Shown piece after piece: positions 38,711 through 59,102 of a stretch of DNA of 64,000 nt. The notes under the pieces are model-generated. The model was not told the DNA's origin, searched no databases, and worked only from the letters and a program-made list of their open reading frames with translations. Origin of the DNA: Octopus sinensis (taxonomy: Eukaryota). The DNA lies in contig NC_043022.1 of assembly GCF_006345805.1 (NCBI RefSeq), positions 17,484,001 to 17,548,000 on the forward strand, in the 5' to 3' direction. The position numbers and the translations under genes were made by a program. Every line of letters starts with the position of its first letter. The first letter of the stretch is position 1.

Positions 38711-39007
38711 CTGGAACTCAGAACATAAGAACAAATGAAATGCTGCTAAACATTTTGCCTGGTGTGCTAACAATTCTGTCACCTTGAGAATAATATAGAT
38801 GTTTTCGATCTAGTTTGAATTCTTTGCAATCAAATTTGAATTTTTCAATTGGTGCTCAAGCCTTGAAAAAAAAGAGAGTTAAACTGCATCAGCCGTAAGG
38901 CAATACATGTCTATCTTATCTAACTTGTTCAGTAGAGCCCACCAATTGATATCTGAAAAGTTCGATGAAATATCTAATGAACACTGCCATAGCTTCTACC
39001 AAAAGAT
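38711..39007 (-). repeat. Inverted duplicate of 40819-41114 (most of the right arm of the foldback element plus ~83 bp of its flank)
   Basis: Reverse-complement match with only about six differences counted by eye. Confidence 0.92.
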
Positions 39008-39344
39008 TCCTTCCACTGTGTGAGAGTGGCACATCTTCACACAGCTCTCTTCATCCATCTGTAGTACATGACCATATCAACACAAACATCTCTCTTGCAC
39101 ACAACATCCGATGCTTCTTATGTCCAACAATTCTCTCAGGGTGCTTACACTCTGTCGCGTGTGCACAGACATTACACATCCAGCGGATCATGCTAGCTTC
39201 ACCTGCATTGTACATCAGTGCCAGAGATTATTTACATGAGTTAACACGTGCTATTTGAATTTTTCCTTAATAGAACGGTCGAATTACACAAATCCGGATT
39301 TTTCTAGTTTAATTACAATTAGTCGAAACTCAAACTTTAACAAT

Positions 39345-39650
39345 TACTCACATTTATAAACTACGAAGTGGAAAATGGAGGCTTTGAGACGAGTAAAAAG
39401 GTAACTGGATATGAAATGAAAGAAGAGAGGAGTAAATAATAATTTATTCTAACGGTTATGCGAGACGAATAAAAAGACGACAGCTTCCCAGATTAGATTA
39501 AACGATTAATTGTGATTAGGAGGTGAAAAGAGACGAAATCAAACCGGAAGTATAAATAGACAAGCGATAGGAAGTTAAATCTTCTGACAAAAGAGAGAGA
39601 ATGAGATGAATTTATTTACTATTGTTTACCGCCAGATGTCGCTGTAAGTA
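39345..39650. promoter_or_regulatory. Probable promoter and non-coding first exon (~39581-39643) of the JmjC gene, possibly bidirectional
   Basis: CCGGAAGT ETS site (39544-39551) abutting TATAAATA (39551-39558). CTCF-like CCGCCAGATGTCGCT (39629-39643). Plus-strand donor GTAAGT at 39644 and minus-strand donor GTGAGT at 39351. CpG is retained. Confidence 0.6.
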
Positions 39651-40485
39651 TTGTTTTTGTTGAGAAGTGAAAGTGAAATTAACGTTGCTTGACTGTATTC
39701 GAGTTTATAACATTTTGATAGTACAGCATGGAGAAGATTGGACAGGTTTCGTTCGCTTACATTAGACAATCAAGGGATCTTCCTGGTTTAGTCGTTTATT
39801 TACATCTCTCATACACACACGCATATATACATGCGGTAGGATCGAAGCAGGAATAACATGGTTGCGAAGACAACTTATATCCTTGTCTGTGTGGCCAACA
39901 TGGTCCTATCTATCTTCATTTAAAAAGCCAAGCTGTGCAAAAATTATACATGTGTGCGTGCGTGTGAGAAAGAAGAGACTCCTATAAAACACAAGCTCAA
40001 TACTCAGTCAATGTACCTCTCTGTTTCGAATCACATCACGTAAAAACTATTATGCATAACAAAACAAACGTTTATATAAATTTACACATGGCTGAATAAA
40101 CCGTGTGTGTGTGTATGCACACATATATATATTTGTGCATGTGTATATGTGTATATGTGTATCTACATTTCCTTGACATCACGTTATAGCTGTAAATGAA
40201 GCTCATCATCATACAAGCAGCGTTATTCATTTTCATTCTTCTGTAGGAATCCTGTCTAGCGGCAGGAAATTTTGCACTGCTTAGACACAGGTGATGGTTG
40301 ACAACAGGAATGGTAACTGGCCATAAAAAATCTTCCTCAATTATTTTTGTGTGACCCATACAAACATGGAAAAGTAGATGTTAAAAGATGATGCCAATGA
40401 AAGTATGTCATTATGTATTATTGTGGCTTGCTCACCAATATCATTGATGCACCCTATTGAATACAATTCATCTATCATTATCTAT

Positions 40486-41031
40486 TATAGATGTTTTCGA
40501 TCCAATTTGGATTCTTTGCCATCAAATTTGAATTCTTTGCAATCAAATTTGAATTTTTCAATTGGTGCTCAAGCCTTGAAAAGAAAGAGAGTTAAACTAC
40601 ATCAGCTGTAAGGGAATACATGTCTATCTTATCTAACTTGTCCAGTAGAGCCCACCAATTGATATCTGAAAAGTTCGATGAAATAACTCATGAACATTGC
40701 CATAGCTTCTACCAAAAGATGCTCCATTAGGTCGATCGGTCTGAACAAGGGGAGATAATAAACGAATGATTATGTTTCTATTATCTCCCCTTGTTCAGAC
40801 TGGTCGACCTAATGGAGCATCTTTTGGTAGAAGCTATGGCAGTGTTCATGAGATATTTCATCGAACTTTTCTGATATCAATTGGTGGGCTCTACTGGACA
40901 AGTTAGATAAGATAGACATGTATTGCCTTACAGCTGATGCAGTTTAACTCTCTTTTTTTTAAGGCTTGAGCACCAATTGAAAAATTCAAATTTGATTGCA
41001 AAGAATTCAAACTAGATCAAAAACATCTATA
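40486..41031. mobile_element. Foldback/MITE element: near-perfect palindrome with 250-275-bp arms and an 18-nt loop
   Basis: Left arm 40486-40760, loop 40761-40778, right arm 40779-41031. Termini ta|tagatgtttt...aaaacatcta|ta. Confidence 0.92.
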
Positions 41032-41039
41032 TTATTCTC

Positions 41040-41245
41040 AAGGTGACAGAATTGTTAGCACACCAGGCAAAATGTTTAGCAGCATTTCATTTGTTCTTAT
41101 GTTCTGAGTTCCAGTTCTTCCGAGATATTCTTTACCTTTCATCCTTTCAGATTTGATAAAATAAGTGCTAGTTGTGCACTGGGGTCGATGAAATCAACTT
41201 ATCCCTCCCCAGAAATTGCTGGCCTTGTGCCAAAATTTTAAACTA
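41040..41245 (+). mobile_element. SINE family C
   Basis: gacagaattgttagcacaccaggcaaaatg...ttctgagtt...cctttcatcctttc...ggccttgtgccaaaattt. Confidence 0.85.
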
Positions 41246-41361
41246 TTATCTATTTGGATGCTATTTTAAAATTCCTCTTTTTTTCTCCTTCCTTTTGTTT
41301 TTCAGCTGGTGGCAAGAACTAAGTAAACTAATATGAAAGAAGCATTACCACCTGAGAAACG

Positions 41362-41627
41362 ATGAAGATTAATTTGGTTGTATTTTCACTATTTTATTTA
41401 CATTGTTTATTTTTTCCTTGTTGTCTTCTTGGCTCTTGTCCACCAGACAGTGTACATGGCGAACAGTTATCTTTCATAGATGGAATTTATTCTCTTCCTT
41501 TTAATGAGAGGCTGGAGGAGAGAAAGCAGAATTTGCAAAAATATTCTTTTGAGCACAATGTAAATAGTATTGACCGTCGGAGTGGTCTTTCCCAAGATGA
41601 GTTTAACCAGGTCTATGATGGAAAGTG
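41362..41627 (+). CDS. JmjC-domain 2OG/Fe(II) oxygenase (JMJD6/JMJD4/JMJD8 group), coding exon 1 of 8, containing the signal peptide; full CDS is 376 aa
   Basis: MKINLVVFSLFYLHCLFFPCCLLG hydrophobic leader, then IDRRSGLSQDEFNQVYDGK. Acceptor ttcag before 41306 and donor TG|GTAAGT (phase 2). Confidence 0.9.
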
Positions 41628-41998
41628 GTAAGTAATTGAATCCTGAGAATTCATTAATCAGTATCTTTCTCAAACATAAAATGGTTGCTAAAAAAGGGCA
41701 AAATATTGAGAAGATGGAATCACTTTCATGACAATGGATTGTGAACTGAAGGATTTGAGGGATAAGATGCCGTAACTGATATGACTTTCTCTTGAAGCTT
41801 GTCACCAAACAACTAATTGTTAGAAACACTTGTAACACTGTATTTATACATGTGTGTGTATATACTTTTATTTATTTCGCTAAGTGATACTAATAACCTA
41901 CTTTTAGAACTCAATATACATATTCAACTCTTTGAGGATTCAAACTCAAACTGGATAGTAACAAAATTAAACATTATCAAGCATCTTAATTTGCTGTG

Positions 41999-42250
41999 AT
42001 GGTGCACGGCTTAGTAGTTACGGTGTTGGATTCTTGGTCCTAAGACTGTGGTTTTGATTCCTGGAGCAGGCAATGCATTGTGTTCTTGAGTAAAACAATT
42101 TGTTTCACATTAGTCTAGTTGACTCAGATGGCAAAAACGAGTAATCCTGTGACAGACTCTGGCTTCCCATCCAGTGGGGAATATATATACGAAGGAAATT
42201 GAGAAACTGGCCCTATGAGTCTATATGACTCGAGAAGTATCTTTATCCTA
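41999..42250 (+). mobile_element. SINE family A (intronic)
   Basis: ggtgcacggcttagtagttacgg...ggttttgattcc...tgtgttcttgagtaaaaca. Confidence 0.7.
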
Positions 42251-42780
42251 TCTTTTATCCCTTCTTTGAATTTGCTGCTCTATATTTCATGGCAATTAGC
42301 AATTCTTTCTTTCTTTTAAGAAGATTATCTCTAGAAGCATTGGTAGCATAAAATCAAGAAGAAAGGTACTAGTGACTATGTCTAACATCATTCTTTAAGC
42401 TGTCTTTCTCTGATTCCTTCTCTGTTCACATATTCCAATATGAAACATCAGTTTTTTGTTTTGCAAACACAGCCAACATTTTATGGGAAGAATTATTGCC
42501 ATATAAATTGATGCTGTTACTTCATTTCTTGATATGCATTGGCCTTTTTGTACTATTGGGATATATTTTTGTGATCAAGAGGCATGAAAATTTCACCTAA
42601 ACAGGATTTGACTTCAAATCAGAAGTCCTGGCACTGTTTTTCTTTTCAGCAAAGCCTAATTTCCAATATGCTGTTAAACATAAATAATCCATCTTGTCCT
42701 TGCTTGAAGGAATGTAAGCAAAAACAAAGCTGTTAAACATTCACAGTAACCTTTTCCAATAATTTAACTATATTCCTTGG

Positions 42781-43155
42781 CTCAGGCATGACTATGTGGT
42801 AAGAAGTTTGCTTCCCAACTACATGGTTCCAGGTTCAATCTCACTGCATGGCACCTTGTGCAAGTGTCTTCTAAATTCTGAGGCTGACCAAAGCTTTTTG
42901 AGTGGATTTGGTAAATGGAAACTGAAAGAAGCCTATTGTATATGTGTGTGTTTTTCCCTGCCCCACTCTGCCTGACAACCAGTGTTGGTGTGTTTATGTC
43001 CCCATAATTTATAGATTTGTCAAAAGAGACCAATAGAATAAGTACCTGGTTTTAAAAAAAACTTAAGTAATGGGGTCAATCCATTCAACTAAAATCGTTC
43101 AAGCTGGTGCTTGAGCAGTCCAATGATTGAAACAAATGAAAAATAAAAGATAAGG
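42781..43155 (+). mobile_element. SINE family B (intronic)
   Basis: caggcatgactatgtggtaagaagtttgcttccc...gcaccttgtgcaagtgtcttct...tgattgaaacaa. Confidence 0.85.
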
Positions 43156-44469
43156 ATATAGGGGTTCTACAAGAGCAGAGATTCTTCCATCCTTTTCTTT
43201 CCTGTCTACTGAAGACTGGTTGTGCTGATAATCTTTGCTGACCTTCCTGGATTAATGCAGTTCATCCAATTAATATCGAGTGTGAACTTTTACAGATGAT
43301 TGATCAATGAGAAACCCTGGACAAAAAGAAAGGGTTAGGGTTGCAATTCTGCAAATGAAGGATTGAAAACAGTAATTTGTATAATTAAAGAGCATTTCAT
43401 TAGCTTGTTAGCGTAAATTTTGCATCTTCCAAATAGCAAGAATCTGTGTCTAATTGTTACTCAAGAGAAATGGTGTCCCTCAACTACTTAATACCATGAA
43501 TATAAAGACAAAATGTGTTTCCTAAACTATGAAGAACAGTGTCTTATGCAGTTAGATAGATAAAAGATGAATGTTCTCCTGGGTAAAGTAGCAGTCTATC
43601 TAGGAGTAGTCTTTGATGATTTCTGTCACTATTCCTGACAGTTAAATGAAACGAAGAATGTTTAACTTTATATTATGAAAGATAAGAAGCCCAACATGTC
43701 TCACCTGTTTTATAGAAGACAAGCCAAAGAGGATGCCTCTCCAAAGTAGCAACACAATCACACCCAAATTACACTTTACCCTAGAAAAAGGAAGACAACT
43801 GGATGACATAGGGGTAGATACACTGTACTAGGGGCCAAACTGCCTTGGTTCATAGTTAAGGCTGTCCTTGGACTGCACAGGATAGGCTTTTAATAGCAGG
43901 TGAGATACACTAGGATTTTGTGATAGTCCTATTGTCTATGTCTTGTGATAGTTCTAGTGAAGGCGCATGACCTAGTGGTTAGGGTGTTGCACTCACAATC
44001 ACCAGATCGTAGGTTCAATTCCTAGACCAGGCAGCATGTGTTCTTGATCAAAACACTTCATTTCACACTGCTCTACTGCTATGTAGGAACCTGCATGTCA
44101 AAGAATAGAGTCAATATTTCCTCTGTGTCATAAAAGGCAAGTAAAAGAGGTTGAGGCAGGATTTGCACTCCAACCTCATAAAAACCCCCTCAGCAGCAAT
44201 AGCTACACAAATAGACCCATGGGTCAGAGGGTTGTCACATCAGTGGTGCAGAATTGTAATCCATCAGGAGTAGAGAATCATGGACAAATGGTGGATGCAA
44301 CGATGTGCTGTTACAGTGCATTCTCCCATACAACTACCACTACTACTACTATTGTCTGTCTGAAATTGTAAATCAGCCTCATTTATTACAAGACTTTATC
44401 TAAAATAAAGGATCGCATGATTGACCAGGCAATCAAAATTCTGGCTCACGTTGTTTTAGATGTTGATAG

Positions 44470-44685
44470 ATGCCACCCTGATGGCTAGGTAAGTAGGCCA
44501 ACATTCCCCCTAATCGGAAGGCTTGTCCATCACAGGGTTAGCTATTTACAGCTGAGTGGACTGGAGCAGCATGAAAGGATTTGTTTTGCTTAAGAACATA
44601 ACACACAGCTCAGTTCAGGAATTGAACTTACAATCACTAGATCATGAGTGCAATACCCTAATCACTAGTCCATACATTTTCACAG
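44470..44685 (-). mobile_element. SINE family A (intronic)
   Basis: Homologous to 36910-37116. Confidence 0.75.
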
Positions 44686-44905
44686 AATAAATGAATAAGT
44701 AAGTCAAAATATAATATCTTCTTATTTTTTGTTGTTTTTGATTTCATGACAGGCAGCCTAATAAAATATTGAGTAAATTGAAACAAATATCTAAGGTTTT
44801 GGTCTTGAAATACATAATTGTAGCATTTATTAAGGGTTTTAAAGAAAAGAAGCAGACACTGGGAGATTTCAGTTTCTTCTTAGCAAACATTCGGTTATGT
44901 TGCAG

Positions 44906-45014
44906 GCCTGTCATTCTCACCGACGTCATTACTAAGTGGCCAGCATTCAACTGGACTAAAGAGTTTTTACAAACAAATTATGGACATGCAAAAGTTACAG
45001 TGAAGATATCTAAG
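44906..45014 (+). CDS. JmjC oxygenase, coding exon 2
   Basis: (W)PVILTDVITKWPAFNWTKEFLQTNYGHAKVTVKISK. Acceptor tgcag and donor AAG|GTATGT; the phase joins exon 1. Confidence 0.92.
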
Positions 45015-45754
45015 GTATGTTGTAACATTGTGTCCCCAAAGAGAGGCGATTTGCAAGTGAAAGTTTTCCGAGTATAATAAACCTCCTTTCCAACTTCCAG
45101 TGAAATTCTAACGTACAATTTAGTTGTATCTTCATCATCATCATCATTATTATTGTTATGAAGAGCATTGAAAGGTAGAGTTGGTGTAGCAGTGAGCAAA
45201 ATGCATTGTGATACTTAGTTACATCCCTTTGCATTCTGAGTTCAAAGTTTGTTGAAGTGAACTTTCATTGTTCCAAGGTTGAGAAAATAAGAATCAGGCA
45301 AGTTGAGATTCTTCATTACACGTCTTATACTTTTCAAAAACAAAAAAAAACAAAGGGTAGTGACTTGTAGAAACACCAACTGGTAGAAGGAGTGACTGAT
45401 AGAAACAGTGGGGTATCATACAAAATGTCTTGAATTATTTACATATCTTTATGTTTAAGTTCAAATTTTTCTGATGGTATTAATAAAATGAGAGCCAAAT
45501 TATTGAACTTGTGATGTCATTCCATCAATGTAGGAACGTTGGTTGCCCTCATTCAAATTTTGGATTTGAATTTCTATATATCACTTTTCATTTTGAACTC
45601 AACAAAGACAGGCAAGCTGTTGAAATATCGTTCAACCAATAAAATATCTCTTGCAATCATGTCACACTCTTTGTATTGTCTATTTACCTTTGTGAAGAGT
45701 TACATCAATCCTTTTCAAATATTATCATCATCATCAATAATAATAATAATAATA

Positions 45755-45968
45755 ATCCTTTCTACTATTGGCACAAGGCCTAATATTTTGTGGGAGGGGA
45801 CTAGTTGATTACATTGACCCGTTTTTGCTGGTACTTAATCTATTGACCCCAAAAGGATGAAAGGCAAAGTCGACCTTGACAGAATTTGAACTCAGAACCA
45901 TAGTGACAGGCAAAATACTGCTAAGCATATCGCCTGGCACGCTAACAATCCTGCCAGCTTGCTGCCTT
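45755..45968 (-). mobile_element. SINE family C (intronic)
   Basis: Reverse complement reads aaggcagcaagctggcaggattgttagc...gtcgactttgcctttcatcctttt. Confidence 0.85.
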
Positions 45969-46462
45969 AAATAATAATCATCATTATCATCATTTAATGT
46001 CCACTTTCCATGAGGACTGGCAAGCCAGGAGGCTGCACCAGGCTCCAATCTGATCTGATTATTTTTTTGTGTTACAAAAAAAAATGAAGTGTGACATAAA
46101 TTCCACCAAAGTATCAAGGAAAGAATTCATGTTTAGTTCAGGTTCCTTGGAATTTAACAGAAAAGATTGTAAACTATTTCAGATGTAGAACTTATTCTCA
46201 GTAACTAAGTAAATGGGGGAAACATACAGTTTTAGAATTTAACCCAAACAGCTGTTAAAATATATTCAGAGAAATTGAATTCAGCATCTGTGGTCTGGAA
46301 GCATAAAATCCAATTCCTTTTTAGCTATTTGGCATCTGCAGAACGACTAAACACAATGGCTGATTGTAAACTGATAATTATTTTTAATAACCTTTTTATA
46401 TCTCTACTCTCATGGCCTCACATTTTTGTTTCTTTCCTTTTTTTTTTTTTTGTCTGTTTCAG

Positions 46463-46606
46463 GGTTCTGAGTCATTTGGATCTGTAGAGCAGCTTCAGCA
46501 CATGATACCCCTTCTCAGCTCCAGTGAACTGAAACAATGGTTCTATATTGAAGATGAGCTCTTCCTTAACTTGCATCCAACTCTTTTGAAAGATATTGGC
46601 AGCACA
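46463..46606 (+). CDS. JmjC oxygenase, coding exon 3
   Basis: GSESFGSVEQLQHMIPLLSSSELKQWFYIEDELFLNLHPTLLKDIGST. Long poly-T tract plus cag acceptor, GTAAGT donor, 144 nt. Confidence 0.9.
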
Positions 46607-46874
46607 GTAAGTACATGTGGTTGTTTAGGGAATTGATTTGGTGTGTGAACTATTAACCCATTTGCTTAGATATCAGATCATTTTTGTGGCGTTTCAGTCT
46701 TTGCCAGTTGTCTATAAGAATTATTGCGTTGAGTCAAAGAGTTTTGCAATATTTTGGTAACTTATTTGCTTTATTTGTCGAGTTCCAGCAAAAGCAGTGA
46801 AGCATTCAAAGTAGAGGCCATTGTGTTGCCCCCTTTTCTGCCAGTTCTTTAATCCCATGCTGATACCAGTTCTT

Positions 46875-47485
46875 GTCGTTTGAGGGGAAGAACTCCTTCA
46901 CTGAAACATCCACCTCTTCTCAGTTGATGAAGTGTCTTGAGGCAGGAAGTGAGCCAGGAATCAGAACAAGTTATAATCTGAAGGAGATATTTTCCTGCAA
47001 TCCTAACATGTATAAGCAGTGGTTAAGCAAGAGCCATATTCAGGAACTTGTCTCCAAACATGGAAGTCTCAGACACAAGGGGATGCTCTGTATCTGGTGG
47101 AATTATGAGGAGTTCATTCTGGATGGTCAAACCATCAATATCAACCTGTAATCTGAACAGCTGGAGTGGATGTATGCCACTGTGCAGCAACAATACCCAG
47201 CATTGGTTAGGGTTAGAAAATGAACTCTTCTGCAGCAAGACAATGCAAGACCTCATACCATTTGAATGACCCAGAATATACTCCAGGAACTTGAGGGAAT
47301 TGAACTGATGCCACACCCAGCATATTGTCTGGATCTAGCTCCTTTGGATTATTGGATTGTTCCACTCCATGTCTCACTTCTTGCACTTGTGATACTTCAT
47401 CAACCGAGAAGACGTGGAAACTGCAGTGAATGAGTTCTTCTTCTCAAAGGACAAAAACTGGTATCAACATGAGATCGAACTATCT
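46875..47485 (+). mobile_element. Decayed mariner transposase fragment (intronic)
   Basis: KGMLCIWWNYE, LLQQDNARPHT, ELMPHPAYCLDLAPLDY (variant of the YSPDLAPxD motif). Confidence 0.85.
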
Positions 47486-47921
47486 TATTGTTCTGTGTCT
47501 TCTCATTTCCTTTTCCTGTTTCTTTTCTCTTTTCTACTTTTGTCATCATCAATGCCACTCTTTTGGTCATTGTCATAGTTGTACTTCAATTCTCCGCACA
47601 ACCTTCCCTCATTTTCTCCTCTTCTAGTCTCTTGAAAATGGAAATTATTACAGCCAACTGTTCTATTTGCTGAGATTCTTGGATAAAAGAAATACAATTT
47701 GATTGTAAAAAATAGACATAGTGCTTGGTTTGTTACCAAGGATATGTCCTGATCGATCAACTTTAATTCCTGTACACTTTCTGAAGCAAGCTTATACTTC
47801 TTGTTCGGTTGTTCATTTGAGGAAACCCCATTCTAGCCGTTCAAACTGCTTGTTAATCTACTTGACATTTTCTTCTTTCCTTTCACTGAAATAATGCAAA
47901 AGGCTTTTTTGTAATTTTCAG

Positions 47922-48083
47922 CCACTGCTGACCGAAGACTTCTTTTCTCTGTTTCCTGAGGAAATTCGACCATGGAATTCCATGCTACTTTGGGGTGGGG
48001 CCCACTCCAGGTCTCCACTACATATAGACCCCTACAATTGGACTGGAACAAATGCAGTATTGAAAGGGACCAAAAAATGGAAA
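47922..48083 (+). CDS. JmjC oxygenase, coding exon 4 (HxD motif); absent from the ORF track
   Basis: PLLTEDFFSLFPEEIRPWNSMLLWGGAHSRSPLHIDPYNWTGTNAVLKGTKKWK. Acceptor ttttcag, donor GTAAGT, 162 nt. Confidence 0.95.
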
Positions 48084-48377
48084 GTAAGTCTCTCTTTTTT
48101 TTAAACTTTCAGTCATCATCATCATCTTTTGCATCAACATCAGCAGTTTTCCCATGTCTCCATCTGCAGTCTATAGAACTTATTTTAAAGAAATTACCTT
48201 TCTCTAATTGATAAGTTGATGAAGTTGCCATTTTAAGAAAACAGCTTATCTCTTTTTTTCTCCCCCAATTTGTTGTTTTTTATGGTGAATTTCTCTGTGG
48301 CAAAAATGTTTATGGTGAAATTTCCTATAACCCAATGGCTGTGCCCTGATGTTAATTATGGTTTAATTCTATTTCAG

Positions 48378-48463
48378 TTGTTTCCTCCTGGTCAGGATGA
48401 TTTACTGTATGTCATTCCTGAACAGAGGTGTGGCTTCCCTTTGGAGTGTCGGAAATATAACAG
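48378..48463 (+). CDS. JmjC oxygenase, coding exon 5 (predicted GC donor)
   Basis: LFPPGQDDLLYVIPEQRCGFPLECRKYN(S). Acceptor atttcag. The donor AG|GCAAGA gives the phase 2 needed by exon 6; an alternative GT donor lies after 48427. Confidence 0.8.
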
Positions 48464-48679
48464 GCAAGAACCACCATTGTCCTTGTTCTTCTCATCACTG
48501 TTATTTTTATTTTGACTTTAGTCAAAACTGAATGTTACTGGTACCTATTTCATCAACCACCACAGTTAAGGAAGACAAAGTTAGTTAACAAGCAGAAGGA
48601 TTTGAAATCAGAATAAGCAAAACTGAAACTAATTACTATAATTACTAATAAACACTCCTGCATTCCTTTGATCTGACTG

Positions 48680-49432
48680 CCATTTCTCTCTCTCTCTCTG
48701 TCTCCTTCCCCACTATTCCACTCCACACATTGACTCCCTATTTTTCATGTCCAGTTTTATTATACAGCTGCTCTCCGCCCTTCCTATATTGCCACTTATT
48801 TCCCCCTCCCCTCTGATCTGCCACTCCTCTATATTTTAGTCCACTCTCCCTATTGATATTTACCATTGATTCCCCCAACCCCCATCTTCTTCCTTGTTCA
48901 TCATTCACTGCAATCACCTCTACCTAATCATCTCTTATCCTTTCTGATTCTCTTTCCATATTCTCTCCATACACTCTCCTCCTCCTTGTATCTTGACAGT
49001 CTCTCCTCACGCCTCCTCATCACCACCCTCTCTATCTCTCTTTTCAGATACTCTCACACTCACTTCTTTATATGGTGCAGCATAGCCATTGTATCTCCTC
49101 TACAGCCAAACAGCTCAGCTTGTCCCTCTACCATACTTTAACCTCTCTCCATAAATTGACTGCCATTCCTTTTAACCCTAACCCCACTCACACAACTTAA
49201 TCAAGGGGTATTTTTGTTTATCTTGCAAGTCACTTGGTGACTCTGCTAGCACTGGTGCCATGTGAAAAGCACCAAATACATTCTGTAAATTGGTTGGCAT
49301 TAGGAAGTGCATGCTGGCTGTAGAAACTGTACCAAATCAGACACTGGAGCTCAGCACTGCTCTCTGGCTTGTTGGATCCCAATGAAACATCCAACCTATG
49401 CCAGCATGAAAGAGCGACATTAAAATGATGAT
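48680..49432 (+). mobile_element. RTE LINE CT-rich 3'UTR and tail
   Basis: Pyrimidine-rich tract, then tcttgcaagtcacttggtgac...ccaacctatgccagcatg...atgatga. Confidence 0.75.
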
Positions 49433-49801
49433 AGTGGCGGCGGCGATGGCAACATTGTAGCAGAAGCAGCAGCAGCAGCCGACTAAAGACGATGCAGGGT
49501 TTTCTTTTGAATTTTTTTCATTCTGAGTTGAAATCCCTGCCCGGCCAATTCTATATTTCAGCCATTCAGAGTTGATTAATAAGAACCAGTTTCATATAAG
49601 AGTTGCTTCACTTGACTATTCTCTTCCTCTACTAAATTAGCCGTTTAAGAAATCAGTTTTATTTGGTAGAAATAATAGAGTCCAAGAGTAGAGTACCTTA
49701 AAGTACTGCTTGTTCTGAGTTGATTAAAGTAAATGACCAGCATGTATGATTAACTGTATGTCAATAGGATTGATGGTTGTTTAACAGATCTTTATTCAGC
49801 T

Positions 49802-50385
49802 TGAAGGCACGTGGCTTAGTGGTCAGAGTCTTCGGCTCACAGCTATAAGGTTGTGAGTTTGATTCCTGCTGGTACTTTTTGTCCTTGAACAAGATGCTTC
49901 ATTTCATGTTGCCTCAGTCCACTCAGCCGGCAGAAATGAGTTCTACCTGTATTTCAAAGGACTTGCCTTGTCACACTCTTTGTCATGCTGAATCTCCCTG
50001 AGTACATGTCTGTGGAGTGCTCAGCCACTTGCACATTAATTCCATGAGTGGGCTGTTCTGTTGATTGGATTAACTGGAACCCTCATCATCATAACCGATG
50101 GAGTGCCCATCATTTGAATTGAAGTGAGGTGGGAGATGAGTTGTCAGTAGGACTAGAATGATAGATGAAATACCTTGCAATATTTAGTTTCATCAAGGGT
50201 ATCAAGGTGGCAAGCTGAGAGAATTGTTATGGTGCCAGGCAAATGCTTAGCAATACTTCATCCATCTTTACCTCCTGAGTTCATCTTTTCAGGGTCGATA
50301 AAATAAGTAACAGTTGTGTACTGAGATTGATGTAATCACTTACCCCTCCCCAACATTGCTGGCCTTGTGGATAATTCGAAAGCAA
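49802..50385 (+). mobile_element. SINE family A (49802-50108) and family C (50203-50385)
   Basis: gaaggcacgtggcttagtggtcagag...gagtttgattcc, and aaggtggcaagctgagagaattgtt. Confidence 0.8.
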
Positions 50386-50675
50386 TATTTAGTTTCATCC
50401 CTCTACTTTAAAATCTAGTTTTATGTAGGGACAAAAAAAAAGGGTGAGGGGGCAATATTTATAACATGAGTAATTAGAACCATACAATCAGAAATAATTT
50501 ACTGCTAAACTGTGTCTGTTTGGTTTTTGTTTGGTGCTATTTCCCTCCACTTCATCTTTGCATATTATTTATTCTTGGTCAGGGGATGATCTGACTCACT
50601 CAAGGGCCAAATCACTTGGTCAAGAGCTGCAAATGAGTATCATTTGCAGCATCCAGTTGATTAACCAACATTCTG

Positions 50676-51355
50676 TCATCATCATCATCATTTAATGTCC
50701 ATTGTCCATGCTGGGTATGGGTTGGATGGTTTGACCAGAGCTTGCCAGCTCTGGTCAGCTGCACCAGATTCCAGTCTGATTTGGCATGGTTTGCTATGGT
50801 TCGACACCCTTCCTCACACCAACCACACAGCAGGGTGTGTACTGGATGCTCTCTACATGGCACCACCACAGGGGGCTTTATGTAGCACTGCCACAGGTGC
50901 TTTGCACCACTACAGGGACTGGTCTTAACACTTCTGCTGTGGAGCATGGGTTTTCTTGAGTATAGTAAGGTGCCACGCATCTTGGTCCTTTGTCATCTCA
51001 CCTGAAAGGTTCAGCATCCTGAGGTCGTTCTTCAGTACTTCATCCTATGTCTTCCTGGGTGTTCCACTTTCACGTGTTCCATCTACTATAAGAGGTCGGC
51101 ACTTCTTTATAGAGCTATCAGCATCCATCCACATCACACCAAACCAACGCAGTCTTCTCTCTTGCACACAGCAACTAATTCCTCTTAGGCCTAACTTCTC
51201 TCTCTCTCTAAACAATAGCACCCTGATGAAGAACATGTAACCTTACATAACACATCCAGTGGAGCATACTAGCCTCATTCCTTTCTAATCTTCACATGTC
51301 CTCTGCTTTCAGGGCCCATGTCTCACTACCATGTGGAATTGCTGTCCATATACAT
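50676..51355 (-). mobile_element. 5'-truncated RTE LINE
   Basis: REKLGLRGISCCVQERRLRWFGV...GTPRKT, with a (CAT)n tail at 50676. Confidence 0.85.
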
Positions 51356-51377
51356 ATATGGCTCTTAAGATCATTTT

Positions 51378-51600
51378 AGGCACAAGCATGGCTGTATTAG
51401 TAAGACGCTAGCTTCCCAACCACGTGGTTCCAGGTTCAGTCCCACTGCATGATACCATGGGCAAGTCTTTTCAACTATAACCTTGTGAGTGGATTTGGTA
51501 GACAAATTGACATAAACCCGCTGTGTGTGTGTGTGTTTGTCCTCCATCACCACTTGACAGCTGGCATTGGTGTGTTTATGTCCCTATAACTTAGTGGTAT
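51378..51600 (+). mobile_element. SINE family B
   Basis: aggcacaagcatggctgtattagtaagacg...ggttcagtcccactgc. Confidence 0.8.
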
Positions 51601-51738
51601 GGTATTTTCTCTTTCCTTCTTACTTTCTCTTAATTCATATCCATTTCTTTCAACTGTCTTCTTTTCATTTCTCTAATTCTTCTCTCTCTCTATACCCTTC
51701 TAATATAAAACACTTCTATTCATCTCTGTAATATAGCG

Positions 51739-51963
51739 CAGTGGCTCTCAACCAGTGGTTCTCAACCTTATGACCATTAGAGGTCCATTTGACCATTAGA
51801 GAGTCCTTGGTTATGCTTCTAAAATACACAATTTTTTAAAATACAATTCCTAATAATATTCAATTATAAAAACATAATAGGAGTTCTTTTATGTTGAATG
51901 GATATTGGGATCCTAAAATAGGAATCAAAAGTGGGGCCAAAGGGAAAGAAAAGAGTACCACTG
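51739..51963. mobile_element. hAT-type MITE
   Basis: Termini cagtggctctcaacc/cagtggttctcaacc and gagtaccactg. Imperfect 8-bp TSD atatagcg / atatagta. Confidence 0.7.
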
Positions 51964-52069
51964 ATATAGTACCACTTTCTCCTAAGGCACCAGACCAAAC
52001 TGATATAGAATATTGACAAATAATTTTTCTTTTTTTCTTTTTTATGCTCTGTATTTTTTTTTATTCCAG

Positions 52070-52190
52070 CAAAGTTGATGCTTTTACTCCTAACCTTTTG
52101 AATTATCCAATGTTCCAAATGGCTAAATCCATTGATTTTGAGCAAAAATCAGGTGAACTTCTAATAATTCCGACTGGCTGGTATCATCAG
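52070..52190 (+). CDS. JmjC oxygenase, coding exon 6 (distal His)
   Basis: (S)KVDAFTPNLLNYPMFQMAKSIDFEQKSGELLIIPTGWYHQ contains the QxxGExxxxPxGWxH motif. Acceptor ttccag, donor CAG|GTGTGT. Confidence 0.95.
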
Positions 52191-53446
52191 GTGTGTATAG
52201 TAGACTTTTTCATAAATCTTAGTATTTTGTGATATTTTTATCCCTTTAGCATTCAAATGTTGCTAACCTGACCACCTTAAAAAAAAAAAACTATTTATTC
52301 CAAGTAACCATATCCAGCTGCCTTTGAATCTATCTTTCCATCACAGATAAAGTCATTTATTTCTTAGTTTCCCTGTTTCATTATTTTGATATGACATCAA
52401 CATTTCAATGTCAAAGGCTGACACATTTTAGAGGGATTCTGTAATGGAAGTAGAAATGAGTTTCTATAAGCCAAGTCCATGTTCTTGTTGTTATACTTTA
52501 TTTTTATATCAAATATTGTCCTTGAGAAAGTTATGTACACCATACAATCTTAATCCTTTTAAACGAGCTGTCTACTGTCAGATGTATCCATGAATGGGTG
52601 ATCAATAGTACAGCTCTTCAGACAATTTTTCCAACTTAATCTTAGTTTGTAGAATGGACACACTATATTCCTGCATGTTGTAAGAGGTAGCCAAGGGAGT
52701 TGGTGACAGGAAAAGTATTCAGTCAGAAAACACTGCCTTAAAAAGTCTCATACAACCCTTGCCAGCATAGGCATGCAGACATGAAAATGATGATGATAAT
52801 AACTAGCACTGGTGCGGGTGCCACGTAAAAGTATTTGTGCGGGAGCCACATAAAAAGCTCACATGCTAGTAGCATGTAAAAGCACCCAATACGCTTTGTA
52901 AAGTGGTCGGTGTTAGGGAGAGCATCTAGCTGTAGAAACCACGCCAAAACAATGGAATTTATTTGATACAGCTCCTGGACTTGCCACTTCCTGTCCAACC
53001 ATCCAACACATTCCAGTTTGGAAGACGACATTAAATGATAATTATGATGATTATTGTATTTTGATAGGTTTATTCTCTGATTATCATTAGGTGTCTTATT
53101 TCTGGGTGTGCAAATAGTACCAAACTGAATTAAAGCAGGAACCATGTTTCTAAACTAAGAGGAGTAGCATTGTTATCCACAACTCCACTGATATCTGTAA
53201 CTGAGTTGGACAGAAATGTTATTTGGTACACATCTAAGAATGCGATATATGAGGATGGCCAAACTAGGAATGCAGCATATGATGATGGCCCAAACTCAAA
53301 GCTATCAAAACAAATGTAGATGCAAATATCAAAATATTCTCATCTGTAATGATGAGGCTAATGATTTGAAATATTCCATTCTACTCTAGGCACAAGGCCT
53401 AAAATTTTGGGTATATTGAGCTTTGTACATTTGTATGCCAATATCT

Positions 53447-54077
53447 CTTTGATGGCATGCACTGCTCTCTCACTCAATCACAATAATAATGATGATAATA
53501 GTAATGATAATAATAATAATCTTGCCCTGATGTAGTCCCAGACATTGGCTCTCATGGCTTCTGATCTTAACTGATTGGAAGTGTTATTGTGTACATTGTT
53601 TTGTTTTGGTATAAAAGATGGGTTACAGCAAATATTCTGCTCAATACCACAGATTTGCTTGTCACTTGTTTGACCATAACCAATTGACCATGTCCGTAGG
53701 TGGCTGACGATATGTGCATTTCTGATCATGAACAGATGTAGTGGGGGAGCATCATAGTCATGTGTTGAGAGGGATTCTTTGGCGCTTGGATAATTCACCA
53801 TTGGAAACATGGGTGTTTCGTTCAAACTCCTTAAACAATCCTTATTCAAGGACCATTTGAGTGGTATGGGCTACTCAACCTGAAGAAAATTTTAAATGGG
53901 CCCCACCTGTGAGGTCATGCGCTGTTTACCTTGATATGAGATCACCATGTCATGCACATATGGTTGTGATGCATGTGCCTGGTCTATTCTCATCAGACGG
54001 GTAGTCATGATGGCTATACTGGGCTTTGTATATTTTACCCCAGTGTCACTTTGATAGCATGCACTGCTCTCTCATTC

Positions 54078-54123
<46 letters not shown>

Positions 54124-54125
54124 GT
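53447..54125 (+). mobile_element. Two tandem 3' ends of an element terminating in (AAT)n (Dong/R4-like target preference)
   Basis: ctttgatggcatgcactgctctctcactcaat at 53447 and ctttgatagcatgcactgctctctcattcaat at 54050, each followed by (AAT)n. Confidence 0.6.
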
Positions 54126-54287
54126 ACTAATCTGAAATATCGTATTCTTATTTCAGACATTTTGACATTTAATCATGATTGCTAAGTGTTCCAGAGTTGC
54201 AACTGGAAATATGGCTCTGTTTGAAGTGTCTGCTGTTTCTTCTCTCCATTGTATTATTCTAATATACTTCATTTTCATGGATTTCAG

Positions 54288-54437
54288 GCTTATAATTCGG
54301 AAGAAACTCTTGCTATTTCTAGTCAAATAATGAACTCCATGAACTATTTGGCTATTATGGAAGAAATTATTAAAGTTGGTAATTTACAGAAACATACCCT
54401 ACCAGACAATTTTGGAAGACTTTCAATAAAAGAACAG
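54288..54437 (+). CDS. JmjC oxygenase, coding exon 7
   Basis: AYNSEETLAISSQIMNSMNYLAIMEEIIKVGNLQKHTLPDNFGRLSIKEQ. Acceptor tttcag, donor CAG|GTTTGT, 150 nt. Confidence 0.92.
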
Positions 54438-55249
54438 GTTTGTTATCATCTGCATTTTATATTTTTTAAGTGAAGTCAAGAGGGCAGTAAAAGTTATAGA
54501 AATGATTGTGTGCTGAGCTAAATGCATTTTTGCTAAGAATGGGTCTTCAGATTTCACCAGTTTTGTATTTCTTCTGTCCAGAGTCAATAAAGAAACTACC
54601 AACTATATATACTGGCACCAATTTATATTTCTTGCCTAAAAAATTGTACCTTTTTCTTTTTATATCTTTTATCTATTACTTTTTTCTGTTGTTAGACTGT
54701 GGCCATACTGAGGCACACGGGGGGACTGAACCTGCAAATATGTGATGGGGAAGCAAACTTCTTACCACACAATCACACCTGATTATATAATTCCAACATT
54801 TCATTCTTTCCTTTTGATTTAAGCAATCAATGCCGAGGGAATTGAAGAAAGTGAAGACTCATAATTCTAATTAACAGATGTGCTGACACTGTTGATTAGA
54901 TCTGATTTGACTAATGATTGACATCAAAGATTGATCTCTCTATTTGTTCAGTCATTATGTTTCCCAAATTAGAAATAAAAAGATCAAACAGACAAAGTAA
55001 ACAATTAATCCATAAATTATTAGTTTCAATCTGTTTCAGAGATTTTGTCACCTCTTCATTTTATATTGATACAATTAGAATTAGTCCCATGTCATCTACA
55101 AATATCAATGTAATTGACCGGTGTTCTGTCCAAAGAGAGACTTATTCTTCATATACTTCACAGAATAGGGAAAGTTCTCATTTGTAAGTAGTATCAATAT
55201 AAAAATTGACATATGGTAAAATGTCTTGTAGTGCAGAATTGAGCTCCTG

Positions 55250-56571
55250 TTCTGAGGGAGATGGCCCTGCTCAATGTGTAGAAAAGGTGCAGGTAGAAAC
55301 TCCATAAGATGCACCCAGTATAAGCTTTGGACACATAAAAGGTGTAACAACATCAAAGGAAGGTTAACAGAGAAACAAACTTTTGTATGTGAAAGATGCA
55401 CAGGTACAATAAACACTGAAATGTGCAGAAAATAGACTCCATCAATTGCCAGGGGTACAAGCTAAAGGGAGTAGATAGCATCCATTATCTAGGTTAGTAG
55501 TGGAGGTGGATGCTCTGAGAGCGTAGCTGTGAGAATAAGATTAGGCTGAGTAAAATTCAGAGAGCTCCTACCCCTGCTGGCAACAAAGAGCCTCTCTCTC
55601 AGAGTGAAAGGCAGATTGTTTGATGCCTGTGTGTGAACAGCCACACTACATGGCACTGAAACATGGGCTGTGACAGCTGAGGACATGCGTAAGGTTTGAA
55701 GGAAATGAAGCCAATATGCTTCACTGGATGTGCAATGTCAGTGTGCATGTTTGACAGAGTATAAGTATCTTGAGAGAAAAGTCAGGCATAAGAGGCATCA
55801 GATGTGGTGTGCAAGAGAGACAACTGCACTGGTAAGGTCATGTGATACATATGGATGAGGACAGCTGTGTAAAGAAGTGCTGATGTCTAACTGTGGAGGG
55901 AACCTGTGGTAGAGGTAGACCCAGTAAGACATAGGACGAAATAATGAAGCATGATCTTTGAACTTTGAGCTTCACAGAGGCAATGACTAGTGACTGAGAT
56001 CTATGGCATGATGCTGTACTTGAGAAGACCCGTCAAGCCAAGTGCACTCATGCTGGTGGCATGTAAGGGACATCTTTCAAGTGTCGGACCTCACAGAGGC
56101 AAAGTGGCTGAGTTCCTTTTGAGTATTAGGCCTCATGGAGGCAAAATTGTTGACATCCTCTTGAGTGTTGGGCCTCACAGAAGCAAGGTGACTGAGTTCC
56201 TTTCGAGTGTTGGGCCTCACGGAGGCAATGACCAAGACCTTTGGCATTATGTCGTGCTTGAGAAGAAGAAGACCCATGAAGCCAAGCAAAATCACAGTTG
56301 TGTCAGGTACCAGTGTCATGCAACTAGGCACCTGTGTTGGTGGCACATAAACGCACCATGATGTCATGCAAATGCCACCCATGCCAGTGGAACATAAAAG
56401 CACCCATTACACTCTCAGAGTGGTTGGTTTTAGGAAGGGCATCCAGCCATAGAAAACCATACCAAATCAGACTGGATTCTGGTGCAGCCTTCCAGCCTTG
56501 CCAGCCCAGTCAAGCCGCCCAACCGATGTGTGTTACAACGGATGTTAAATTATGATGATGATGATGATGAT
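55250..56571 (+). mobile_element. 5'-truncated RTE LINE with the PHD-like region, a 42-bp tandem array (~56075-56230) and a (GAT)n tail
   Basis: GRWPCSMCRKGAGRNSIRC, GTETWAVTAEDMRK, RGRGRPSKT. The tail ends tgatgatgatgatga. Confidence 0.9.
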
Positions 56572-57279
56572 AAGCTCCACCTGGCTGATTTGGTCTCAAT
56601 ATAACACAGAGAGAGAGACAGACAGACAGACTCTTCAGTATTGCCTCTGTTACCAAATGGGTTGAGGGATTCATTAGTATTATTCAGTCCTTGTTAAGTG
56701 TAATATTTCTATTTATATATAAATATACCCATGCCAGTATGGAAGGCAAATGTTAAACAATGATGGTGATGAGGACGACGATGGGATTAAGTTTTATCTC
56801 AAACTTTCGATTTTATCAAGGCTTTTTCAATGTTCTTATTCATTTCAATACAGTCTCTTCACCTGAAGGTTTTCAGGAATATATCCATTTCATATAAGTG
56901 GCTATTGAACCAGGTTGCACTAAATGTAATTAGGCCAATTTGAGCATATTACTCTTTTGTGCCCTTAAAAACACAGTGAAGGAATTGCACTTCTTTCTGA
57001 TGAGTGTGCACTTTTCAGAAGTAATTACCGATCATTAATCTACTATAAGGCTTATAGGAAGCCTTTGTGATAGCTTATATCCAGCTAGTGTAAATGGGCT
57101 GTAGAGGCAACCATTTCCGTCATGAAACAGTGCTATATGAGTTACAAGATACAAACTGTGAAACTTTTATCCTGAAATTGTTCTATTGTCTTCCATTAAA
57201 TTTGATCCTGGCTTTATATAACACCAGTTGGAACTGTTATAACAACTGAACAAGAGCAAGCAACAAAACAGGCACAACA

Positions 57280-57720
57280 TTTCTAAACTACATCTGACCA
57301 GATAAAGCTGCTGATCTTTATCCAACAGAATATGCTCTTCACATCAAGATTATGCCCTTCATTTGAGGTCAAGAATGTCATCAAATCCATGAAAACTAGT
57401 AAAGCACTGGGCATTGACTTCCTCTGTGTAGAAATGATCAAAAACAGTCCTTGTTCCTGCGATACCAGAGTCACTTGATCTTTATGGAATCATCAGGGAG
57501 AGTGACAACCATTGCAAGTAACCTAAGGGACTAATTGTGAAACTTTCCCCAGAAAGGAAACTGATAAAGGAGCTGCAATAATTAGCTTGGTATGATGATC
57601 CTCTCTGTCGTTAGCAAGAATTCTTCTCCAAAAGATTGACTAAAAGCTGAGAGAAGAGCAGACAGAATTCAGGAAAGGTAGTGGGGGGGGGCATACAACG
57701 AGATTTTTGCATTGAAGAAC
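57280..57720 (+). mobile_element. Decayed LINE RT fragment; ~100 bp of it (57580-57681) is duplicated at 58221-58341
   Basis: EVKNVIKSMKTSKALGIDFLCVEMIK, LREEQTEFRKG. Direct repeat attagcttggtat...ttcaggaaaggtag. Confidence 0.65.
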
Positions 57721-58507
57721 AGTGGAATGTACTGTTTAATATCGAATACACAGGAAACACTGCAGAGTATTATAGTGAACATTATTGTATTTTGATAGTG
57801 TAAGAGATAATCTCTTGCCAAATTGAGTCTTTTATCTAGGTTTGGTTCTTGGCAAAACTATTTCATTGAGTCACTATCATCCACTCCCATTCCATCTCCT
57901 GAAGCCAAGAGGGCTAAGAACCAGTTAATAGTCAACAAGTTGAAACTTGAATGCTATGTAGGATACAAAGAGATATTTATTCTTTATCTTTTACTTGCTT
58001 CAGTCATTAGACGGCAGCAATACTGGGACACCACCTTCAAGAATTTCTAATCTAATCAATTGCCCCCCCCCCCCACTACTTTTTTTTATTCATATATTTT
58101 TCTCTTTATAACTGATGTAGATGATATGAATTAGAAATAAAATTGAAGGGTACTAGTTACATATCTGAACCCTTAAAATCCTAATGAAAATTGTGTAAAT
58201 CAAAAGCCCAGAACTGAAATGATTCTTTTACAGAACTGAGATTAGCTTGGTATTATGTTCCTCTTTGTCCTTAGCAAGAATTATTCTCCAAAAGATTGAC
58301 TAAAAGCTGAGAGAAGAACAAACAGGATTCAGGAAAGGTAGAGGACGCATTAATGAGATTGTATAGGGAAGGGATTAGGGTTTCCACCCTTACCTTAAAC
58401 AGTTCCTTACTTTCTTCAAACTCTGTGGGAACAATTATACTAGTATACTTCATGTGTTATTATGCATTTCAGGACTGGCTGAAATATACAGGAATTTAAG
58501 AATTAAA

Positions 58508-58892
58508 TACAGGCATTGTTGTGTGGTAAAAAACTTGTTCCCCAACCACATGGTTCTGGGTTCAATCTCACTTCATGGCACCTTGGACAAGTGTCTTATA
58601 CTATATCCTCAGACTGACCAAAGCCTTGTGAGTGGATTTAGTACATAGAAACTGAAAGAAGCCTGTCATATACATGTGTGTGTGTGTTTGTCCCCCACTA
58701 CCGCTTGAAAAGTGGTGTTGGTATGTTTATGTCCTTGTAACTTAGCAGTTCAGCAAAAGAGACTGATAGACTAAATACCAAGTTTAAAAACAAAAAATAA
58801 GTACTAGGGTTGATTCGTTCAACTAAAAGTCTTCAAGACACTGCCCCAGCTTGGGCACAATCTAATGACTGAAACAAGTAAGAGATAAAATT
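58508..58892 (+). mobile_element. SINE family B, near full length
   Basis: caggcattgttgtgtggtaaaaaac...ggttcaatctc...accttggacaagtgtctt...ctaatgactgaaacaagtaagagata. Confidence 0.85.
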
Positions 58893-59009
58893 AAATATGC
58901 TACACATGAGATACAGAGAGGGGAACATAAAAAATGTAATTAATATTCCACTCTATAATTAACAATCCACTCTACTAATTTGTTTCTTTTTTTTATCTTC
59001 CTTTTAAAG

Positions 59010-59102
59010 GTTCGGTCTCTCATCAAATCATTACCTTACCAAATTTTACTACAAGGCCGTCGAGTTGTTGACACTTACCAAAGAACAAGAGAAGAACTCT
59101 AG
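59010..59102 (+). CDS. JmjC oxygenase, terminal coding exon ending in REEL-stop; absent from the ORF track
   Basis: Long pyrimidine tract plus aag acceptor, phase 0. Reads VRSLIKSLPYQILLQGRRVVDTYQRTREEL*. Confidence 0.8.
   Translation, partial: VRSLIKSLPYQILLQGRRVVDTYQRTREEL

What the first reader, a model, noticed from the sequence alone, without database searches (positions are those of the whole stretch)
39601..41365. Chain of three uORFs, each coupled by an ATGA stop-start overlap, leading into the JmjC start codon
Seen, if the donor at 39643 joins the acceptor at 41306: uORF1 MR* (39601-39609) stops on the ATG at 39606. uORF2 MNLFTIVYRQMSL|WWQELSKLI* crosses the intron and stops at 41334-41336, on the ATG at 41333. 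uORF3 MKEALPPEKR* stops at 41363-41365, on the main ATG at 41362. Each link is the same -1 ATGA overlap. A second candidate first exon (ATG 39375, MEALRRVK, donor at 39401) enters the same frame as uORF2. Known: AUGA overlaps mediate translational coupling in bacteria and termination-reinitiation in some RNA viruses, and uORFs gate stress-responsive mRNAs such as ATF4. Inference: a reinitiation relay or stress-gated leader controlling an ER enzyme. Caveat: ATGA is common in AT-rich DNA, and only the last link is independent of the assumed splice.
Basis: partly seen in the sequence, partly recalled or inferred. Interest (0 to 1): 0.7.

Follow-up and report, generated by a model that had tools for sequence, protein, structure and literature searches.

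The report
Three overlapping uORFs on octopus gene
In the predicted spliced leader of an octopus JmjC oxygenase gene, three short upstream reading frames each end on the next start codon, a rare pattern but one expected a few times per genome by chance, and they likely just damp the protein's output rather than relay ribosomes to it.

Summary
The ATGA chain is in the sequence once 39643 is joined to 41306. That splice is well supported: a predicted Octopus vulgaris protein crosses it, and contigs of 3 of 4 probable RNA runs stop matching the genome exactly at 41306. An ETS site, TATA box and CpG-rich zone put the likely start near 39581, upstream of uORF1 (motif evidence only). Triple chains precede 6 of 19,456 ATGs in neighbouring DNA (3e-4): rare per gene, several expected per genome. 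The last link looks lineage-restricted: Argonauta has Thr at the Octopus Met, and most decapodiform-like starts read ATGG. There is no UGGGA ribosome tether. In the cellular cases I read (plant AdoMetDC, SLAMF1), stop-start overlap hides the next AUG rather than feeding it. Best reading: an ordinary repressive multi-uORF leader on a JMJD6-related, probably ER-luminal oxygenase, reached by leaky scanning and delayed reinitiation. A relay is unlikely (about 6%); stress gating is untested.

The parts
39544..39558 (+). ETS-type site (CCGGAAGT) abutting a TATA box (TATAAATA, first T 39551); predicted transcription start near 39581
   Evidence: CCGGAAGT 7 times in 928 kb of both strands; 29 of 1,440 background donors have TATAAAWR 60-150 nt upstream; CpG o/e 1.57. 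The 30-nt TATA-to-start rule and the motif names are recalled.
39581..39643 (+). predicted first exon (5' end inferred, donor GCT|GTAAGT at 39644)
   Evidence: P0001 crosses this junction; contigs leave the genome at 41306
39601..39609 (+). uORF1, 2 codons, in frame with the main ORF; stop overlaps ATG 39606
   Evidence: sequence
39606..41336 (+). uORF2, 22 codons across intron 1, with an inner ATG at 39636; stop overlaps ATG 41333. Same frame as the N-terminus of the annotated signal-less isoform
39644..41305 (+). intron 1, holding a palindromic repeat (40483-41114)
41323..41446 (+). 124-nt inner intron of annotated isoform P0001; removes uORF2's stop, uORF3, the main ATG and the hydrophobic N-terminus; weak donor TAA|GTAAAC; no such joint in 4 of 4 runs laid
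41333..41365 (+). uORF3, 10 codons, stop overlaps the main ATG (out-of-frame overlapping uORF)
   Evidence: sequence; covered without differences in 4 of 4 runs
41362..59102 (+). main ORF, 376 aa in 8 coding exons: JmjC/Cupin_8 oxygenase, hydrophobic N-terminus, H207-x-D209...H295, C-terminal REEL
   Evidence: argues weakly against it (its last two letters would have extended the match to 41304)

Best explanation
The predicted leader carries four upstream ATGs in three short frames that likely lower translation of a JMJD6-related, probably ER-luminal oxygenase, and the three identical overlaps are likely a coincidence of a young, A-rich leader. Shown: the frames, the overlaps, the gene model. 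Supported indirectly: the splice. Inferred: a ribosome that finishes a uORF has not yet regained initiator tRNA when it sits over the overlapped ATG, so each overlap hides the next start instead of feeding it. The main ATG would be reached by leaky scanning, or by reinitiation after uORF1 (90 nt away) or less often after uORF2 (25 nt away, having skipped uORF3). Ribosomes that start at uORF3 would be lost to the main ORF. The net effect would be constitutive damping.
For: Background rate 6 of 19,456 ATGs, which over an assumed 20,000-30,000 genes gives roughly 6-9 chance cases before selection against uATGs; the looser class of any stop-start overlap gives 66 of 19,456. ATGA at the start is common in the family anyway: 39 of 112 Met-starting homologues must have it, 15 more may. 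Argonauta aligns Thr on the Octopus Met with the frame open upstream, and its two in-frame Mets are followed by C and T; P0002, P0106, P0107 and P0003 start Met-Glu. No chain in 9 of 9 distant transcript-like loci with a start, of 10 examined. No UGGGA in any of six leader forms. Reviews: overlapping uORF and main ORF are mutually exclusive (PMC10275272, passages); the plant AdoMetDC tiny uORF occludes the overlapped AUG (PMC2811004, passages); a 1-nt overlap likely precludes normal reinitiation in SLAMF1 (PMC5972666 section 16).
Against: Per gene the pattern is rare (3e-4; about 1e-3 in shuffles), and real leaders are depleted of uATGs (PMC7889888, passages), so the chance count is an overestimate. 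Promoter motifs favour a start that includes all three uORFs. Conservation was judged from proteins only; no leader DNA of another octopod was obtained, and one start (P0114, Met-Ile) allows ATGA. The distant loci are weak controls (three of them appear to be one gene, two have leaders under 10 nt). No translation data exist here.
Confidence: 0.6

Rival explanations
1. Regulated occlusion switch (AdoMetDC- or ATF4-like): uORF1 hides uORF2's first ATG and permits reinitiation; when ternary complex is scarce, ribosomes would pass uORF3 and start at the main ATG, raising an ER enzyme under stress.
For: uORF1 is 2 codons, uORF3 overlaps the main ATG out of frame; tiny-uORF occlusion is documented (PMC2811004); the product has ER-type ends.
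Against: Only 29 nt separate the two landing sites (61 and 90 nt), against 199 and 350 nt in GCN4 (PMC10275272); the last link is not seen in Argonauta; uORF1's ATG would lie about 20 nt from the cap.
Confidence: 0.2
2. The uORF2 frame matters as coding sequence: removing the 124-nt inner intron fuses it to the main ORF and gives a signal-less, cytosolic isoform, and the 'chain' is a by-product of this splice choice.
For: P0001 is exactly this isoform and lacks the hydrophobic stretch (best 15-residue hydropathy 0.8 against 2.03); both candidate first exons enter this frame.
Against: No such joint in 4 of 4 runs (contigs drop rare forms); weakest donor of those scored in the gene, 5 of 9 against 6-7; it is an automated prediction; none of the other cephalopod proteins retrieved has this N-terminus.
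Confidence: 0.14
3. True termination-reinitiation relay: one ribosome would translate uORF1, 2, 3 and the main ORF in turn, restarting at each ATGA.
For: Three identical overlaps, 3e-4 by chance; AUGA is a known restart geometry in viruses and a few cellular mRNAs couple without a tether (PMC5972666).
Against: No UGGGA; no unusual fold (z -0.87 and -0.09); single viral restarts run at 3-20% (PMC10275272), so three in series would yield under 1%; last link not conserved; the inner ATG 39636 offers an entry outside the chain.
Confidence: 0.06

Closest known systems
Plant AdoMetDC (SAMDC) tiny and small uORF pair (PMC2811004, passages)
   Same: A 2-3-codon uORF whose stop overlaps the ATG of the next uORF, upstream of the main ORF.
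   Different: Overlap is 1 nt there, 4 nt here; one link, not three; conserved across land plants with a conserved inhibitory peptide; here no conservation shown.
Human SLAMF1 long-isoform leader (PMC5972666, section 16)
   Same: Several uORFs, the last with its stop overlapping the main start.
   Different: UGAUG overlap and a TURBS-like motif there; ATGA and no UGGGA here; only the last uORF is said to overlap there.
ATF4/GCN4 delayed reinitiation (PMC5972666, PMC10275272, passages)
   Same: Very short first uORF and a later out-of-frame uORF overlapping the main start.
   Different: Spacing here is much shorter (61 and 90 nt); stress response untested; not conserved.
Calicivirus and influenza B termination-reinitiation (PMC10275272, passages)
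   Same: AUGA stop-start geometry.
   Different: Long upstream ORF and a TURBS tether there; 2-22-codon uORFs and no UGGGA here.
JMJD6-related invertebrate JmjC-only family named 'F-box protein At1g78280-like' by NCBI
   Same: The main ORF is a member: 44-56% identity to most full-length mollusc, cnidarian and deuterostome homologues; nearest solved structure JMJD6, E 2e-19.
   Different: No F-box found; cephalopod members have a short N-terminus and REEL/RDDL ends, most others a longer basic N-terminus before the hydrophobic stretch. Orthology to JMJD8 (ER JmjC protein, PMC5684140, search listing only) was not tested.

Membership tests
[quoted passage not shown] | uAUG in the mRNA leader whose out-of-frame stop lies inside the main ORF | tested here: met
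   uORF3 41333-41365, covered by contigs of 4 of 4 probable RNA runs
[quoted passage not shown] | uORF is translated and represses the main ORF | not testable with these tools
   needs ribosome profiling or reporters
TURBS-type termination-reinitiation | stop and start within about 20 nt, e.g. AUGA | tested here: met
TURBS-type termination-reinitiation | UGGGA motif complementary to 18S rRNA upstream of the overlap | tested here: not met
   absent in six leader forms and in 39250-39660
TURBS-type termination-reinitiation | structured element presenting the motif | tested here: inconclusive
   the two leader exons were folded separately, z -0.87 and -0.09; the spliced leader was not folded
ATF4/GCN4-type delayed reinitiation | short permissive first uORF plus downstream inhibitory uORF | tested here: inconclusive
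   geometry present if the start site is upstream of 39601 (motifs only); roles not measured
ATF4/GCN4-type delayed reinitiation | induction by eIF2-alpha phosphorylation | not testable with these tools
   no data
ATF4/GCN4-type delayed reinitiation | uORF layout conserved across related species | tested here: inconclusive
   protein-level test excludes the last link in Argonauta and 4 of 5 decapodiform-like starts; no leader DNA from other octopods
AdoMetDC tiny/small uORF occlusion | tiny uORF stop overlapping the next uORF's AUG | tested here: met
   uORF1 over ATG 39606, 4-nt rather than 1-nt overlap
AdoMetDC tiny/small uORF occlusion | conserved, sequence-dependent inhibitory second uORF | not testable with these tools
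   no orthologous leader DNA obtained
JmjC 2-oxoglutarate oxygenase (main ORF) | Cupin_8/JmjC domain with HxD...H triad | tested here: met
   PF13621 84.3 bits, PF02373 43.2 bits; H207, D209, H295 align with the JMJD6 motifs; their role as iron ligands is recalled

The most novel reading that the evidence does not exclude
A cellular animal mRNA uses a selected cascade of three ATGA overlaps, as a ribosome relay or an alternating occlusion ladder, to set or stress-gate an ER oxygenase, with a splice that turns the middle uORF into the start of a cytosolic isoform; octopods may use ATGA-overlap uORFs more widely.
Probability: 0.08. Interest if true: 0.75.

Novelty: new member of a known kind. 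Interest (0 to 1): 0.2.

Why it matters
If ordinary, it is one more multi-uORF leader and shows that such chains arise by chance a few times per large genome. If the cascade were selected and functional, it would be a cellular, tether-free serial stop-restart element, and a compact 120-nt test bed for whether short-uORF overlaps feed or hide the next AUG, a question the reviews read leave open for SLAMF1.

Tried and rejected
No listed run is on record as RNA (18 holders in 6 studies, kind guessed); 4 of 24 were laid, on exon 2 and its flanks only, so exon 1 and the start site were not seen in reads. Repeat-derived rows filled the loose-end table, so the letters upstream of 41306 were not shown. 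The idea that the signal peptide is only a translated polypyrimidine tract was rejected: the stretch is in the contigs of 4 of 4 runs and homologues carry a hydrophobic stretch there. A micro-exon reading (acceptor at 39636) would leave 10 shared letters, not the 7 or 14 seen; unsupported. P0001 starting at 39636 rather than 39606 was weighed as a sign of a later start site, but 5'-truncated models explain it equally well. RNA editing of the overlaps: no other letters in exon 2 in 4 of 4 runs (contigs drop rare variants). Search for exon-sized octopod homologues found nothing; the representative search added no cephalopod N-terminus that I could use. Pfam found nothing in 11 of 11 other ORFs tried for a neighbouring gene. 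PMC10193022's 'AUGA' hits are a codon label, not relevant. Paper searches listed no report of a triple ATGA chain or of cephalopod uORF work; one search returned 0 papers with all five terms; these searches are not exhaustive and no supplements were opened.

Full report
Setting. The window lies on a 25.5-Mb contig of a 2.7-Gb genome, and the exon-2 region has one match. Eight exons from 41362 to 59102 translate exactly into P0104, a 376-aa protein deposited for Octopus sinensis (three accessions) and O. vulgaris. It has Cupin_8 and JmjC domains and no F-box, JMJD6 as nearest solved structure, a hydrophobic stretch at residues 5-19 and a C-terminal REEL. An ER-luminal location is predicted from these two features; no signal-peptide predictor was run, and reading REEL as a KDEL-type signal is recalled knowledge.

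The observation. A fourth upstream ATG at 39636 lies in frame in uORF2 and is followed by T. The splice has two supports. The predicted O. vulgaris protein P0001 is reproduced exactly by exons that include this junction. In 3 of the 4 runs laid (of 24 listed; RNA is the tool's guess), the contig over exon 2 stops matching at 41306 with 0, 14 and 7 letters left; in the fourth it runs into the intron to 41214. The leftover letters were not shown; that the match does not extend to 41304 fits donor 39644 better than 39401, which is inference. Exon 2, with links 2 and 3, is covered without differences in 4 of 4 runs. The start site was not seen. An ETS-type site at 39544 abuts a TATA box at 39551 in a CpG-rich zone, which by the usual spacing (recalled) gives a start near 39581 and a leader of about 120 nt containing all three uORFs. 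P0001 begins at 39636, not 39606, which could mean a later start or only a truncated model. Other leader forms give chains of 1 or 2.

Chance. In 464 kb of this contig, both strands, 6 of 19,456 ATGs have a triple ATGA chain within 130 nt, 80 a double and 1,075 a single link; any kind of stop-start overlap gives 66 triples. Shuffles of the leader with the main ATGA fixed give about 0.001. With the real exon 2 fixed, 15 of 1,461 random first exons complete a triple. The pattern is therefore rare for one gene but expected several times in a genome of 20,000-30,000 genes (gene number assumed), and this one was picked because it showed the pattern. Against this, leaders are depleted of uATGs in general (PMC7889888, 12 of 29 passages), so the true chance count is lower.

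Conservation. Only proteins were available. The Argonauta N-terminus aligns without gaps to the window with Thr on the Octopus Met (core distance matched by 2 of 63,961 window positions), its frame is open upstream where Octopus has three stops, and its two in-frame Mets are followed by Pro and Cys. The six codons upstream of the Thr do not match better than chance on their own (13% of positions), so the idea that an older start lay at 41344 is a guess. Four unnamed proteins, three of them clustering with a cuttlefish protein, start Met-Glu; one, P0114, starts Met-Ile and allows ATGA. So the last link is excluded in Argonauta and in 4 of 5 decapodiform-like starts. ATGA at the start is itself common in the family (39 of 112 certain). 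Ten of 57 metagenome loci with long matches were examined; 9 had a start and none a chain, a weak control.

Mechanism. Viral AUGA restarts need a TURBS tether and run at 3-20% (PMC10275272, 12 of 22 passages); UGGGA is absent here and neither leader exon folds better than shuffles. For short uORFs the same review calls an overlapping uORF and the main ORF mutually exclusive; the plant AdoMetDC tiny uORF occludes the AUG it overlaps (PMC2811004, 7 of 7 passages); and a 1-nt overlap in SLAMF1 is thought to preclude normal reinitiation, though coupling there is left open and a few human mRNAs couple without a tether (PMC5972666, passages and section 16). The likeliest working is therefore damping with occlusion: uORF1 hides ATG 39606 and releases ribosomes 26, 61 and 90 nt from the next three starts; uORF2 hides uORF3 and ends 25 nt before the main ATG; uORF3 is a sink (for distances). 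All of this is inferred; no translation was measured.

A second layer. P0001 uses a 124-nt inner intron (41323-41446) that removes uORF2's stop, uORF3, the main ATG and the hydrophobic stretch, making the uORF2 frame the start of a signal-less protein. Its donor is the weakest scored in the gene and no run showed the joint, so it is at most a minor isoform or a prediction artefact.

Verdict. Observation confirmed, with the start site unproven; relay unlikely; a new member of a known kind, the repressive multi-uORF leader with an overlapping last uORF. Interest 0.2. Two earlier scan notes on single ATGA-overlap uORFs (octopus protocadherins, ADGRB1) are untested leads and were not used as support.

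Noticed in passing
window 59088-59102; P0002, P0003, P0004, P0105, P0116: All 12 cephalopod-like sequences with a complete C-terminus end in REEL or RDDL, while only a handful of about 100 other homologues have KDEL-like ends: cephalopods may have turned a membrane-anchored JmjC oxygenase into a soluble ER-retained one.
   Followed up: partly
window 48464-52069: GC-AG intron (donor CAG|GCAAGA) in the coding region, needed to reproduce P0104.
   Followed up: yes
window 40483-41114 and 38711-39007: Palindromic repeat in intron 1 (182-nt arms, 96%, 18-nt loop) and an inverted partial copy upstream, so promoter and exon 1 sit between arms that are 97-99% complementary; a young MITE-like element and a possible editing substrate.
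   Followed up: partly
window 39352-39359, minus strand: A second TATA-like box pointing away from the gene, within the CpG-rich zone; no partner gene found by Pfam in 11 ORFs tried.
   Followed up: partly
window 41214-41305: One run's contig reads through the last 92 nt of intron 1 while spliced downstream: retained intron or an alternative leader with only the last link.
   Followed up: no
window 41308-41340: Octopus leader read in the main frame shares short motifs with the Argonauta N-terminal extension, separated by a 15-nt insertion with two stops: the leader may be decayed coding sequence.
   Followed up: partly
P0115, P0116: Two Argonauta records on different contigs carry the same N-terminus.
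   Followed up: no
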